Source: a phage
Assembly (NCBI GenBank): GCA_027218345.1
Contig: GCA_027218345.1_3950.1
Direction: 5' to 3' (one strand)
DNA length: 64,000 bases
The notes under the pieces were generated by a model. The model did not search any database. It was not told where the DNA came from and saw nothing but the letters and a program-made list of their open reading frames with translations. Below are positions 44,380 through 54,924 of this stretch, one piece after another. Within the stretch, counting starts at the first letter, position 1, and the number at the start of each line of letters is the position of its first letter. The position numbers and the translations under genes were made by a program.

Positions 44380-52395
<8,016 letters not shown>

Positions 52396-52396
<1 letters not shown>

Positions 52397-52635
52397 TACA
52401 TTTTTCCTGCTCTTCTAAGTTCGTTGTAAGCAATTTCCTCTTTATACGACCTCTGAATTTCAAGAAATTGTCTCAATGATAATAAATCAGAGAATGTCAT
52501 AGCAAAGAGTTGGTCAAGTGTTTCTTTACACCCTTCCATACCATAAATAGCAAGCACAAATTTCATCTCGTCTGCTTCTTCATAGGTTGCCTCTACAGCA
52601 GCATCAGTTAGTGGTGTCTGTAGAGTGTTACCCAT
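52396..52635 (-). CDS. tail assembly chaperone, frameshift extension (T-domain-like)
   Basis: 79-aa ORF in -1 frame relative to upstream chaperone ORF. Confidence 0.5.
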
Positions 52636-52637
52636 GT

Positions 52638-53036
52638 TTACTGAGAAGTTAGGCTTTTGAAAATGCTTGCTTCGAAAAAACTTCCGAAGTTTGCCTCCAG
52701 CGCAAATGCTAAGTAATCAATAAACTCGCCATAGTTTGCTTGGAAGTACGTATCAATATTAAGTGGGAAGTCATCAACAGTTGCCCCTTGAAATAACAGG
52801 GTAGCCATTTCTTCAAGGTTAATTTCTTCAATTCTGTCAAAACAAGCTTCAACAAGTTCTTTAAATGGAACCATTGGAGCTTCTTTCTTACCCTTGTCAG
52901 TCAGACTTGAAAGCATCTGTGCAAAAGTTGGAACAACAATTTTACCCAACTTCATAGACATCTTAATACCATCTCTTGCCCCAAGCAGAACGATATTTAC
53001 TTTCTTACCATTAATTACTCTAGATTCTGTTTTCAT
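52638..53036 (-). CDS. tail assembly chaperone (G-like)
   Basis: 132-aa ORF between tube and tape measure genes; contains slippery TTTTTTC near its 3' end. Confidence 0.5.
   Translation of the reverse strand: MKTESRVINGKKVNIVLLGARDGIKMSMKLGKIVVPTFAQMLSSLTDKGKKEAPMVPFKELVEACFDRIEEINLEEMATLLFQGATVDDFPLNIDTYFQANYGEFIDYLAFALEANFGSFFEASIFKSLTSQ
52674..52680 (-). other. -1 programmed ribosomal frameshift slippery heptamer T_TTT_TTC
   Basis: In-frame X_XXY_YYZ heptamer (codons TTT TTC = FF in ...GSFFEAS...); -1 frame stays open into downstream 79-aa ORF. Confidence 0.5.
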
Positions 53037-53062
53037 TGTGATTCCTTAATACTTTTAAAAGA

Positions 53063-53097
53063 AACAAAAAAGGGGAAGACCTTTTAAAGTCTCCCCC
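53063..53097 (-). terminator. rho-independent terminator after tail tube gene
   Basis: GGGGAAGAC...GTCTCCCC hairpin with A-run on plus side. Confidence 0.45.
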
Positions 53098-53109
53098 TTA
53101 TAGGATTTA

Positions 53110-53556
53110 TTAAACACTTGACGCTGGAATTGTAGAAGTGTAGTCTAACTTCTCACAACCAAAAATCCAAGTTTTAGAGTTCTGGTCACGACCAAGTTCA
53201 ATCTGTGGTAATTCCTGCAACCAAGCATTAATACCAGTTGCCAGAACAGAGCCTGATGGGTCGTAGATTACGAAGTTAGAAGAGATATCTTCTTCAAGTT
53301 CCATATTGTCTTGTTTAGCTTGAATTGCAGAAAGCATCTGGTTAGAGAGAGAAGTCTGCATTAACTCAATCTCAATAGTACCTGTCTTGTCTGCATTTCT
53401 TGTCAGAGCAACTTGACCACCTGCACCAACAACTGGTGTCACAAGCGGTGATGTTCTCTGTAGACGCAAGAATGAATCTGGGGCAAAGCCTTCAATGGCA
53501 ATACCATTCCAGCTACATACAACGTCTTTAGGGGAATATTGCTGATACATAGCCAT
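53110..53556 (-). CDS. tail tube protein
   Basis: 148 aa, follows sheath gene and precedes chaperones. Confidence 0.5.
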   Translation of the reverse strand: MAMYQQYSPKDVVCSWNGIAIEGFAPDSFLRLQRTSPLVTPVVGAGGQVALTRNADKTGTIEIELMQTSLSNQMLSAIQAKQDNMELEEDISSNFVIYDPSGSVLATGINAWLQELPQIELGRDQNSKTWIFGCEKLDYTSTIPASSV

Positions 53557-53571
53557 TCCAATTTACCTCTA

Positions 53572-54924
53572 TTATTCGTAAGCCACTGTACCTTTCAAGT
53601 CAACATCCAAGATAGCCCCTGCTAAGATACCTGCGAAGGTAACATCTTTCAGGATACGAGCTTTCTTGTCTGCCAAAGCAACTTGAGAGGCTTTAGGAAC
53701 ATTAACTGTGTAAGATGACAGGAAGTTTCTGTTGACTGCTCTTTGTAGAGAGGTTTCAATGACTTGACGAATACGGGTAATACCAGTATCATCATAAGTA
53801 ATCTTACCACCCTTCTGGTTAATTAGCAAGTCTCTCAGAGAAGTTTTCAGGTCTGATTCTAACCAGTCAACGCCACGGACGATATCAATCCATTCCCCAC
53901 CAGAAGTAATCCCTCTACGAACCACTGGAACACCACCATCAAGGTCAATAAAGTTACAGTGACGTACATCTAAAGCAGACTTCTGAATACTTGTCAGAGG
54001 TCTCTGATTAGATGGTTGTAGAGAAGCTGCTACACCAGTTAGCTGAGCATTACCCCAAGCAATTGAACCTGCATCATATGGAGCACCATAAGCAATGTAT
54101 GCCATCTCTGGATAGTCTTCTGCTGCTGCGTGATGCCACAAGCAAACTGTGTGAGTATACATGCTCTTAGCAAGCTGTGCTGGAACATCACTTGCACTGG
54201 CTAATTCTGTACCTTGTAGTGCTGATACATCAGAGTTAGCAGTGAAGAAGATTTTCTTACGAGCCTGAATCTCAGAAGCCATTGCTAAGACAAACTGTTG
54301 AGTTCTGTCTTCTGCTGCAATGAAATACCAGTCAGTAGAATAAGCTTCAATAGCTGCCAGAGCAGTTGATGCTGTATCAGCAGTTGTACTTGCAATATAC
54401 ACAGTCTGTGCTGTAGTTGTTACTTTCACAAAGTCATTATCACCCGCTTTGGTAATAACCATTGTGGCAGAACCATTGCTACCAGTTACATTCACAGAAA
54501 CCTTATCTTTGATTGTTGGGTCAGCTTCAATCTGTGTTTTAAACTGTTGCAACACTACCTCAGCAGTGTCTGAGTCTTGTGCTGTGTACTGGTATGGTTG
54601 AGAGATTCCGCCGCCAGCAGCTACAGTAATTGAGTAGTCTGTACTTTCTGTAACGGCATCAGGAATTGATACAGTGTACTGCATAGCACGTCTACCAATA
54701 TAAAGCTGAGTTACTTTAGGAGTCTGACTCCAAAGTTGTTTAGCAGCCTTATATGCAGCAGAGTTTTCATCGAAATCTTCAGCAACTTCAGTTAAGGAAG
54801 TGTAACCACGTACTCTTTCTTCAAAGTTATCTGTTGAAGCTAAGAATAGTGGCAAACCAAAACCTTCTCTTGTAGTTCCTGCGGTGTTCAATGTAATATC
54901 TACATTAACAATTGGATTCCACAT
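53572..54924 (-). CDS. tail sheath protein
   Basis: 450 aa, position upstream of tube gene; contractile-tail gene order. Confidence 0.55.
   Translation of the reverse strand: MWNPIVNVDITLNTAGTTREGFGLPLFLASTDNFEERVRGYTSLTEVAEDFDENSAAYKAAKQLWSQTPKVTQLYIGRRAMQYTVSIPDAVTESTDYSITVAAGGGISQPYQYTAQDSDTAEVVLQQFKTQIEADPTIKDKVSVNVTGSNGSATMVITKAGDNDFVKVTTTAQTVYIASTTADTASTALAAIEAYSTDWYFIAAEDRTQQFVLAMASEIQARKKIFFTANSDVSALQGTELASASDVPAQLAKSMYTHTVCLWHHAAAEDYPEMAYIAYGAPYDAGSIAWGNAQLTGVAASLQPSNQRPLTSIQKSALDVRHCNFIDLDGGVPVVRRGITSGGEWIDIVRGVDWLESDLKTSLRDLLINQKGGKITYDDTGITRIRQVIETSLQRAVNRNFLSSYTVNVPKASQVALADKKARILKDVTFAGILAGAILDVDLKGTVAYE

What the first reader, a model, noticed from the sequence alone, without database searches (positions are those of the whole stretch)
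52396..53036. -1 programmed frameshift joining the two tail assembly chaperone ORFs
Between the tail tube and tape measure genes, a 132-aa ORF is followed by a 79-aa ORF in the -1 frame. Eleven codons before the first stop there is an in-frame slippery heptamer T_TTT_TTC (plus coordinates 52674-52680, minus strand; codons TTT TTC = FF). After a -1 slip the frame reads RSKHFQKPNFSVN and continues without a stop through the downstream ORF, predicting a fusion of about 210 aa. This matches the conserved G/GT chaperone frameshift of tailed phages.
Basis: seen in the sequence. Interest (0 to 1): 0.55.

Follow-up and report, generated by a model that had tools for sequence, protein, structure and literature searches.

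The report
Known phage tail-chaperone −1 frameshift site
This is the usual slip-back-one-base trick by which tailed phages make a short and a long version of their tail assembly chaperone, here in a Felix O1-like E. coli phage; it is real and very well conserved, but has already been annotated in sister phages, so it is ordinary.

Summary
The window is a Felixounavirus (Felix O1-like myophage). On the minus strand, between the tube gene and the tape measure gene, a 132-aa chaperone ORF (Pfam Phage_TAC_15) is followed by a 79-aa ORF in the −1 frame. T_TTT_TTC (52680..52674) sits in the correct X_XXY_YYZ phase. A −1 slip gives a 213-aa fusion (…GSFF|RSKHFQ…).

One genome alone is weak evidence: a heptamer falls in such an overlap by chance 6–9% of the time. 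Comparison settles it:
- The heptamer is kept in phase in 12 lineages down to 26% protein identity, including 57–64% GC relatives (joint codon-choice probability about 5e-11).
- The −1 ORF often has no ATG.
- Synonymous variation collapses from the heptamer onward.
- A Buttiauxella prophage encodes the same fusion as one in-frame gene, and its separate G gene has a non-slippery TTC TTC.

This is not new. GenBank carries exactly this fusion for Salmonella phage Mushroom (same genus), Moogle and Michonne, and the Moogle paper mentions it. No junction peptide has been shown. No proximal stimulatory hairpin exists. A conserved hairpin 37 nt downstream remains unexplained.

The parts
52638..53036 (-). 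Gene G: 132-aa tail assembly chaperone, the 0-frame product made by most ribosomes
   Evidence: ORF list. Pfam PF21822 Phage_TAC_15, E 1.7e-19, 71 bits against a cut-off of 22. phrog_1613 'tail assembly chaperone', E 2.9e-48.
52674..52680 (-). Slippery heptamer T_TTT_TTC. TTT (F120) is in the P site and TTC (F121) in the A site; both tRNA-Phe can re-pair one base back.
   Evidence: The phase was checked. The heptamer is conserved in phase in 12 lineages. The synonymous-codon probability is about 5e-11.
52396..52674 (-). −1 frame segment translated after the slip: a 13-codon linker RSKHFQKPNFSVN, then the T domain (92 codons plus stop)
   Evidence: Translation. The linker and T domain are conserved in relatives. 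Synonymous variation is suppressed from the heptamer onward.
52396..53036 (-). Whole G-T recoding unit, encoding the 213-aa fusion GT (G residues 1-121 plus 92 residues from the −1 frame)
   Evidence: The same construction for phage Mushroom is exactly AJF40599.1/YP_009600435.1, and for Moogle exactly YP_009145710.1.
52396..52635 (-). 79-aa ORF as a gene caller sees it (ATG at 52635). It is most likely only the C-terminal part of GT, not a separate protein.
   Evidence: No Shine-Dalgarno-like motif in the 18 nt before the ATG. The ATG is not conserved: it is ATA in L015, and is absent or deep inside the T domain in other lineages. phrog_4963, E 2.8e-55.
52694..52698 (-). GGAGG, a Shine-Dalgarno-like pentamer 13 nt 5' of the heptamer. 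It is a possible weak upstream stimulator (inferred, not supported by conservation).
   Evidence: Sequence. The spacing falls within the 6-17 nt range searched by Sharma et al. 2014 (PMC4066793). GAGG is kept in 9 of 13 lineages, but no more often than the E-A codons would give.
52581..52636 (-). Stable hairpin starting 37 nt 3' of the heptamer, directly after the 0-frame stop, and enclosing the ATG of the 79-aa ORF. Its role is unknown. It is specific to this clade and is not a classical stimulator.
   Evidence: dG −22.2 kcal/mol, z −5.7, 0 of 200 shuffles as stable. It is kept with compensatory changes in the Felixounavirus, SUSP1-like and Mooglevirus clades. It is absent in more distant relatives.
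53110..53556 (-). Tail tube gene (upstream neighbour)
   Evidence: PDB 9mt4_P 'Tube protein', E 2.9e-96.
50168..52396 (-). Tape measure protein gene (downstream neighbour). Its ATG overlaps the stop of the T frame (TAATG).
   Evidence: Pfam TMP_3, E 2.3e-17. phrog_4036. Sequence.

Best explanation
This is the tail assembly chaperone pair G/GT of a Felix O1-like myophage, expressed by programmed −1 ribosomal frameshifting.

Proposed mechanism:
1. Ribosomes start at ATG 53036. Most read to TAA 52640-52638 and release the 132-aa chaperone G.
2. When codons TTT (F120) and TTC (F121) occupy the P and A sites, a minority of ribosomes slip one base back. The two tRNA-Phe re-pair with TTT TTT.
3. Base C52674 is read again as the first base of CGA (Arg).
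4. Translation continues in the −1 frame for 92 codons, giving a 213-aa GT fusion that ends where the tape measure gene starts.

Inference from lambda G/GT and P2 E/E+E': the shared G part binds the tape measure protein, the T part recruits tube subunits, and the low fixed GT:G ratio is set by the slip frequency.

The signal appears to be essentially the heptamer alone, as in P2. There is no proximal downstream structure, and at most a weak upstream GGAGG.

Shown here: the anatomy, the family membership, and conservation and selection on the site.
Inferred: the slip itself, its frequency, and the roles of G and T.
For: - Anatomy and phase.
- Gene context: sheath, tube, G, T, tape measure.
- Family: G is a Phage_TAC_15 member.
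- Conservation: T_TTT_TTC (T_TTT_TTT in one Alteromonas phage) lies in phase at the invariant FF in Felixounavirus, Mooglevirus, Kolesnikvirus, Hafnia and Yersinia phages, Myoalterovirus, rV5-like FV3 and phiTE, and GC-rich IMG/VR contigs at 26-31% identity. The −1 frame is always open into an 83-123-codon ORF, and the +1 frame never is.
- Codon choice: given the amino acids and local codon usage, the chance of NNT TTT in 12 lineage representatives is about 5e-11.
- Start codons: the −1 ORF has no ATG at all in 4 lineages, and its first ATG lies deep inside the T domain in 7 others. One Felixounavirus has ATA in place of the ATG.
- Synonymous sites: synonymous-codon identity rises from about 0.5 to about 0.9 from the heptamer onward, not upstream of it.
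- Natural control: a Buttiauxella prophage has a separate G gene whose SFF is encoded TCA TTC TTC (not slippery). It also has a single in-frame 201-aa gene that aligns collinearly with the predicted fusion across the junction, E 5e-13.
- Motif efficiency: U_UU.U_UU.C gives more than 0.1% shifting in E. coli without stimulators and is under-represented in E. coli genes (PMC4066793).
- Myophage precedent: P2 uses TTTTTTG without a downstream hairpin (PMC3091744).
- Partial experimental support: the T-ORF product of Mooglevirus Sf14, which has the same heptamer, was detected by mass spectrometry (PMC11821841).
Against: - No junction peptide or reporter assay exists for this family.
- Within this genome alone, a heptamer in the overlap has a 6-9% chance expectation.
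- There is no proximal stimulatory structure (z +0.9 for +1..+45), so efficiency may be low.
- In this clade an ATG lies 5 nt after the G stop, so some free T made by termination-reinitiation cannot be excluded.
- In Sf14 the T-ORF product was detected but G was not. That is not what a simple GT fusion predicts, although the preparation was crude.
- The 12 lineages share ancestry, so the 5e-11 figure overstates independence.
Confidence: 0.9

Rival explanations
1. There is no frameshift. The 79-aa ORF is translated on its own from ATG 52635, for example by termination-reinitiation after the G stop 5 nt upstream, and acts as a separate small chaperone.
For: - An ATG lies 5 nt after the TAA in the Felixounavirus, SUSP1-like and Moogle clades.
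- Most GenBank and RefSeq records annotate two separate CDSs.
- Sf14 mass spectrometry reported the T-ORF product but not G.
Against: - No Shine-Dalgarno-like motif precedes the ATG.
- The ATG is ATA in L015.
- The ATG is absent in L004, L048, L051 and L053, and lies deep inside the conserved T domain in seven other lineages.
- The ATG sits inside a −22 kcal/mol hairpin.
- This reading does not explain the heptamer's synonymous conservation, the conserved −1-frame linker upstream of the ATG, or the in-frame fusion homologue.
Confidence: 0.05
2. The same GT fusion is made by transcriptional slippage. RNA polymerase adds one extra U in the T6 run, and ribosomes then read the fusion in the standard frame.
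For: - One extra U gives an identical protein (S-F-F-R…), so the sequence alone cannot separate the two mechanisms.
- A weak hairpin-plus-T-run, terminator-like pattern overlaps the site (52700..52684).
- The Alteromonas relative has a T7 run.
Against: - From established knowledge, efficient bacterial RNA polymerase slippage needs runs of about 8-9 or more, and this run is 6.
- What is conserved is the phased heptamer ending in C, not run length.
- The terminator-like hit is at the level expected from shuffles: 2 found against a mean of 1.0.
- U_UU.U_UU.C is an experimentally shift-prone ribosomal motif.
Confidence: 0.04
3. The heptamer is a chance by-product of the conserved Phe-Phe motif, and the downstream ORF is unrelated or not expressed.
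For: FF is invariant at the protein level, and the genome is AT-rich, so TTT is common. The within-genome chance is 6-9%.
Against: - NNT TTT is kept even in 57-64% GC relatives, where its joint probability is 0.03-0.2 per lineage.
- It is lost exactly where GT is encoded in frame.
- The T ORF is conserved (phrog_4963, E 2.8e-55).
- The T-ORF product was detected by mass spectrometry in Sf14.
Confidence: 0.01

Closest known systems
Annotated chaperone frameshift of Salmonella phage Mushroom (KP143762, Felixounavirus) and Citrobacter phages Moogle and Michonne (Mooglevirus)
   Same: - Same genus (Mushroom) or sister genus.
- Same 641-nt span, same heptamer, same junction.
- My predicted fusions for the Mushroom and Moogle loci are letter-for-letter the deposited proteins AJF40599.1/YP_009600435.1 and AIW03804.1/YP_009145710.1.
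- The frameshift is mentioned in PMC4319497.
   Different: The window's own fusion differs from Mushroom's by two residues and is not in the protein collection. Most sister records, including Felix O1 itself, annotate two separate CDSs. All of these are predictions without experimental proof.
Phage lambda G/GT −1 frameshift and the conserved tail-chaperone frameshift of dsDNA phages (Levin et al. 1993; Xu, Hendrix and Duda 2004, as cited in PMC5009743 and PMC3091744)
   Same: - Position between the major tail/tube gene and the tape measure gene.
- Two overlapping ORFs with the second in the −1 frame.
- A phased heptamer near the end of the first ORF.
- A fusion sharing the N-terminus of the short product.
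   Different: - The heptamer is T_TTT_TTC rather than G_GGA_AAG.
- The tail is contractile rather than non-contractile.
- The protein family is different (Phage_TAC_15).
- The GT:G ratio and the functions have not been measured here.
Phage P2 E / E+E' frameshift (Christie et al. 2002, as cited in PMC3091744)
   Same: A myophage with a −1 shift on a T6-based heptamer (TTTTTTG) and no downstream hairpin. The window likewise has no proximal structure.
   Different: The last base is C rather than G. No sequence comparison with P2 gpE was made here. P2's frameshift has been shown experimentally; this one has not.
dnaX / IS911-type bacterial −1 frameshift signals (heptamer plus upstream SD plus downstream hairpin)
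   Same: A phased heptamer, and in this clade a GGAGG 13 nt upstream, within the 6-17 nt range used by Sharma et al..
   Different: There is no hairpin 5-9 nt downstream. The SD-like motif is not conserved beyond what the coding sequence predicts.

Membership tests
G/GT-type tail assembly chaperone with programmed −1 frameshift | The gene pair lies between the major tail (tube) gene and the tape measure gene | tested here: met
   Order on the minus strand: sheath 53572-54924, tube 53110-53556 (PDB 9mt4 tube, E 2.9e-96), G, T, tape measure 50168-52396 (Pfam TMP_3)..
G/GT-type tail assembly chaperone with programmed −1 frameshift | The second ORF overlaps the end of the first and is in the −1 frame | tested here: met
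   The −1 frame is open for 76 nt before the G stop and for 106 codons in total. The +1 frame is closed.
G/GT-type tail assembly chaperone with programmed −1 frameshift | An X_XXY_YYZ slippery heptamer in phase within the overlap | tested here: met
   T_TTT_TTC at 52680..52674, starting on codon position 3.
G/GT-type tail assembly chaperone with programmed −1 frameshift | The site and two-frame arrangement are conserved among diverged homologues | tested here: met
   12 lineages down to 26% identity. Codon-choice probability about 5e-11. Synonymous-site suppression from the heptamer onward.
G/GT-type tail assembly chaperone with programmed −1 frameshift | The upstream product belongs to a tail assembly chaperone protein family | tested here: met
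   Pfam PF21822 Phage_TAC_15, 71 bits (cut-off 22); phrog_1613, E 2.9e-48. No NCBIfam or PDB sequence match.
G/GT-type tail assembly chaperone with programmed −1 frameshift | A fusion protein with the G N-terminus and T C-terminus is actually made, at a low fixed ratio to G | not testable with these tools
   Only indirect evidence exists. A natural in-frame GT homologue aligns across the junction. The T-ORF product was detected by mass spectrometry in Sf14 particles (PMC11821841). No junction peptide has been reported.
G/GT-type tail assembly chaperone with programmed −1 frameshift | G and GT are required for tail assembly and are absent from mature virions | not testable with these tools
   No genetics are available. 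The Sf14 particle mass spectrometry listed the T-ORF product as detected and G as not detected, in a pelleted, not gradient-purified, preparation.
dnaX/IS-type stimulated −1 frameshift signal | A stable hairpin or pseudoknot 5-9 nt 3' of the heptamer | tested here: not met
   +1..+45 folds to −3.2 kcal/mol, z +0.93. No Rfam match. Only the GC-rich relatives L048/L052 have a proximal hairpin.
dnaX/IS-type stimulated −1 frameshift signal | A conserved Shine-Dalgarno-like element 6-17 nt 5' of the heptamer | tested here: inconclusive
   GGAGG at 13 nt in the window and close relatives. It is absent in Kolesnikvirus, Hafnia, Yersinia and phiTE relatives. GAG versus GAA usage is no different from expectation.
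Programmed transcriptional slippage | A long homopolymer run (about 8-9 or more, from established knowledge) whose length rather than phase is conserved | tested here: not met
   The run is T6. What is conserved is the phased TTTTTTC.

The most novel reading that the evidence does not exclude
In the Felixounavirus, SUSP1-like and Mooglevirus clade, the conserved −22 kcal/mol hairpin may be part of the recoding signal. It begins right after the G stop codon, 37-42 nt 3' of the heptamer, and is maintained by compensatory changes.

Two possible roles:
- It slows the leading ribosome at or just before termination, so that a trailing ribosome collides while sitting on T_TTT_TTC. This would be collision-stimulated −1 shifting, as shown with artificial reporters in PMC6815119.
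- It masks the ATG so that free T is not made.

The geometry is only approximate. The A-site to A-site spacing here is 10-12 codons, against an optimum of 8-10 in that paper. The hairpin is also absent in more distant relatives that keep the heptamer.
Probability: 0.1. Interest if true: 0.45.

Novelty: already known. Interest (0 to 1): 0.15.

Why it matters
The practical value is for annotation.
- Most Felixounavirus records, including the type phage Felix O1 and several RefSeq entries, list two separate small proteins, and some call G a 'head closure protein'.
- They should carry one G CDS plus one joined GT CDS with the junction at T_TTT_TTC.

The comparison made here also gives a clean rule for the whole Phage_TAC_15 family.
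- The slip site is the invariant Phe-Phe, always encoded NNT TTT TTY.
- The rule holds even in GC-rich phages.
- The site is lost only where GT has become a separate in-frame gene.

None of this changes what is known about tail assembly.

Tried and rejected
- **Proximal stimulator:** I folded +1..+45, +1..+74 and +1..+100 in the window and in 14 relatives. There is no significant or conserved structure next to the site.
- **Known RNA element:** Rfam has no known frameshift element here.
- **Upstream SD as a selected element:** not supported beyond what the coding sequence explains.
- **Stop-codon collision model:** the heptamer-to-stop distance varies from 9 to 44 codons across lineages, so a fixed collision distance with the terminating ribosome is not a family feature.
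- **Fusion protein against 5.8 billion proteins:** the search returned only G-length clusters. The fusion entries were found only by exact look-up.
- **T segment against 1.8 billion representatives:** phmmer gave only 8 short hits and no long in-frame fusions, so it was uninformative.
- **PDB and NCBIfam sequence searches of G, T and GT:** nothing.
- **8-sequence alignment as a locus-search query:** it was too diverged, so a 5-sequence one was used instead.
- **Supplementary files of the Sf14 paper:** they hold no peptide list for gp42.
- **Structure prediction:** not run, because it would not bear on the recoding question.

Full report
**What the window is.** Megablast of the tail region (50168-54924) finds 298 phage records. 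The best are 98% identical, and all are Felix O1-like myophages of E. coli, Salmonella and Shigella, genus Felixounavirus, subfamily Ounavirinae. On the minus strand the gene order is:
- sheath, 53572-54924;
- tube, 53110-53556;
- a 132-aa ORF, 52638-53036;
- a 79-aa ORF, 52396-52635;
- tape measure protein, 50168-52396.

The tube and sheath match solved Felixounavirus and Mooglevirus structures (PDB 9mt4 and 9c39; E 2.9e-96 and 8.7e-290). The 742-aa protein carries Pfam TMP_3. The 132-aa protein is a member of Pfam PF21822 Phage_TAC_15 (71 bits, cut-off 22) and of phrog_1613 'tail assembly chaperone'. The 79-aa ORF is phrog_4963, also labelled 'tail assembly chaperone'.

**Check of the observation.**
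- TTTTTTC lies at 52680..52674 on the minus strand and begins on the third base of a codon (AG-T TTT TTC = S119 F120 F121), which is the X_XXY_YYZ phase.
- Eleven sense codons follow before TAA 52640-52638.
- Re-reading C52674 gives RSKHFQKPNFSVN and then the 79-aa ORF without a stop. The fusion is 121 + 92 = 213 aa.
- The −1 frame is open for 76 nt before the G stop, and the +1 frame is closed.

Within this genome alone the evidence is modest. In 64 long ORFs (18,149 codons) there are 66 in-phase XXXYYYZ heptamers, so a 25-codon overlap would hold one by chance 6-9% of the time. However, this is the only one of the 66 that leads into a long −1 ORF: 92 codons, against 35 for the next longest.

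**Comparative evidence.** I collected homologous loci from annotated phage records and from IMG/VR.

- **Conservation of the site.** In every frameshift-type homologue the invariant Phe-Phe of the chaperone is encoded NNT TTT TTC (T_TTT_TTT in Alteromonas phage PT11-V22). It is in phase, and the −1 frame is open from there into an 83-123-codon ORF. The homologues are Felixounavirus, SUSP1-like, Mooglevirus, Kolesnikvirus (phiEa21-4), a Hafnia phage, Yersinia phage P778, an uncultured clade (L042-L047), Myoalterovirus, rV5-like FV3, phiTE, and four GC-rich (57-64% GC) uncultured lineages at 26-31% identity.
- **Codon choice.** Given the amino acids and each locus's codon usage, the joint probability of 'previous codon ends in T, first Phe is TTT' across 12 lineage representatives is about 5e-11. 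This overstates independence somewhat, but synonymous sites are saturated at these distances.
- **No independent start.** The −1 ORF has no ATG at all in four lineages. In seven others its first ATG lies 36-77 codons in, inside the conserved T domain. Only the Felixounavirus, SUSP1-like and Moogle clade has an ATG near the start. That ATG has no Shine-Dalgarno-like motif, and one Felixounavirus contig (L015) has ATA instead.
- **Nucleotide-level conservation.** In blastn, the only stretch of the query that still matches Kolesnikvirus DNA is a 41-nt island around the heptamer.
- **Synonymous sites.** In a codon alignment of 11 chaperone genes, synonymous-codon identity is about 0.4-0.65 along the gene. 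It jumps to 0.89-0.92 in the windows that start at the heptamer, but not in the 14 upstream codons where the −1 frame is also open in the window. That is what is expected if double coding begins at the heptamer.

**A natural control.** A prophage in Buttiauxella noackiae (L058) has a 126-aa G homologue whose S-F-F is encoded TCA TTC TTC, which is not slippery. It is followed by a separate 201-aa gene and then a TMP_3 tape measure gene. The 201-aa protein resembles G in its N-terminal part (E 7e-10). It aligns collinearly with the window's predicted fusion straight through the junction, E 5e-13 (ENFGVFLSFVVKPFVKPDF against ANFGSF--FRSKHFQKPNF, continuing into the T domain). So a GT-like protein exists as an ordinary in-frame gene, and where it does, the slippery codons are gone.

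**Mechanism.** The most likely mechanism is tandem −1 slippage of two tRNA-Phe from UUU UUC to U UUU UU.
- Sharma et al. 2014 found U_UU.U_UU.C among the heptamers that shift above 0.1% in E. coli without any stimulator and that are under-represented in E. coli genes. They ranked U_UU.C second among tetramers (PMC4066793).
- I found no proximal stimulator. The 45 nt after the heptamer fold to −3.2 kcal/mol (z +0.93). No position-conserved structure appears in 14 relatives; only L048/L052 have a strong hairpin 3 nt downstream. Rfam has nothing.
- A GGAGG lies 13 nt upstream (52698-52694), within the range where SD-like elements stimulate −1 shifting. Its conservation is what the Glu-Ala codons would give anyway.
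- The signal therefore looks like P2's TTTTTTG, which also lacks a hairpin (PMC3091744).
- The roles of G (binds the tape measure) and T (recruits tube subunits) are inferred from lambda (PMC5009743). They are not shown here.

**Is it new?** No.
- Salmonella phage Mushroom (KP143762, genus Felixounavirus) carries a joined 'tape measure chaperone' CDS over exactly the same 641-nt span. Citrobacter phage Moogle has a joined CDS as well.
- The fusions I built for the Mushroom and Moogle loci by slipping at T_TTT_TTC are, letter for letter, the deposited proteins AJF40599.1/YP_009600435.1 and AIW03804.1/YP_009145710.1. Michonne has a 212-aa entry too.
- Most other records, including Felix O1 itself and RefSeq VpaE1, still list two separate CDSs.
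- I found no experimental demonstration. The Bas63 Felixounavirus structure paper does not mention a frameshift.
- The Sf14 (Mooglevirus) paper lists the T-ORF product FDI99_gp115 as detected by mass spectrometry in particle preparations and the G product as not detected (PMC11821841). Sf14 has the same heptamer in phase. This shows the −1 ORF is translated, but not how.

**Rivals.**
- Independent translation of the 79-aa ORF cannot be excluded as a side route in this clade. It does not explain the conserved heptamer, the conserved linker upstream of the ATG, or the lineages without an ATG.
- Transcriptional slippage would give the same protein. However, the run is only six T's, and it is the phase, not the run length, that is conserved.
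- A chance heptamer is excluded by the comparative data.

**Unexplained.** A stable hairpin (52636..52581; −22.2 kcal/mol, z −5.7) begins directly after the G stop, 37 nt 3' of the heptamer, and encloses the ATG of the 79-aa ORF.
- It is kept in the Felixounavirus, SUSP1-like and Moogle clades, with compensatory changes at four pairs: 89.9% of cells are paired, 0 of 500 shuffles reach the covariation score, and the slid controls are far lower. Only 2-3 independent clades are represented.
- It is absent in more distant relatives.
- It is too far away to be a classical stimulator.
- A collision-based role is conceivable, since Smith et al. 2019 showed that stalled leading ribosomes stimulate −1 shifting of trailing ones at an A-site spacing of 8-10 codons (PMC6815119). 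The spacing here (10-12 codons) fits only roughly.

**Verdict.** The finding is correct and very well supported by comparison, but it is a textbook feature already annotated in the same genus. Its value is for annotation and as a clean family-wide rule for the slip site.

Noticed in passing
window 52581-52636 (minus strand): A stable hairpin (−22.2 kcal/mol, z −5.7) starts right after the G stop codon and encloses the ATG of the 79-aa ORF. It is kept with compensatory base changes in the Felixounavirus, SUSP1-like and Mooglevirus clades and is absent in more distant relatives. Its function is unknown; it might mask the ATG, act as a distal or collision-type stimulator, or stabilise the RNA.
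   Followed up: partly
window 53070-53099 (minus strand): A strong intrinsic-terminator-like hairpin (13-bp stem, loop of 4, then TTTTTGTTTCT) lies in the 73-nt gap between the tube gene and chaperone gene G. It probably lowers transcription into the chaperone and tape measure genes relative to sheath and tube. Some GenBank records annotate a terminator here.
   Followed up: no
L058 2501-3486 (Buttiauxella noackiae JPRU01000001, prophage): This relative makes G and GT from two separate ordinary genes: a 126-aa G with non-slippery TCA TTC TTC, and a 201-aa in-frame G'-T protein. This is apparently a duplication that replaced the frameshift.
   Followed up: partly
L015 about 1899-1901 (IMG/VR UViG_3300045988_004167, Felixounavirus): The ATG that gene callers use for the 79-aa ORF is ATA in this otherwise near-identical phage. 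The change also turns a G·U pair of the hairpin into A-U.
   Followed up: partly
L059 (Shigella phage Sf14, NC_042075 29825-30462): Published particle mass spectrometry lists the T-ORF product (FDI99_gp115) as detected but the G product (FDI99_gp116) as not detected (PMC11821841, Table 1). Under the lambda paradigm neither should be in virions, and GT should also yield G peptides. The preparation was only pelleted, and the search database lacked the fusion.
   Followed up: partly
window 52670-52689 (minus strand): The heptamer sits in the loop and 3' arm of a small hairpin, CUUCGGAA-GUUU-UUUCGAAG, formed with the preceding Asn-Phe-Gly codons. Its pairs are kept, or changed on one side only, in 9 relatives. 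It would be melted by the ribosome, and its significance is unknown.
   Followed up: no
L048 1900-1940 and L052 (GC-rich IMG/VR relatives): Unlike the window, these relatives have a strong hairpin (about −30 kcal/mol, z −2.7) beginning 3 nt after the same TTTTTTC. Stimulators therefore seem to be lineage-specific add-ons to a constant slip site.
   Followed up: partly
public records matching window 52396-53036: Annotation is inconsistent. Felix O1 (AF320576) and most Felixounavirus records list two separate CDSs. Several call the G protein 'head closure protein' or 'tape-measure protein'.
   Followed up: no
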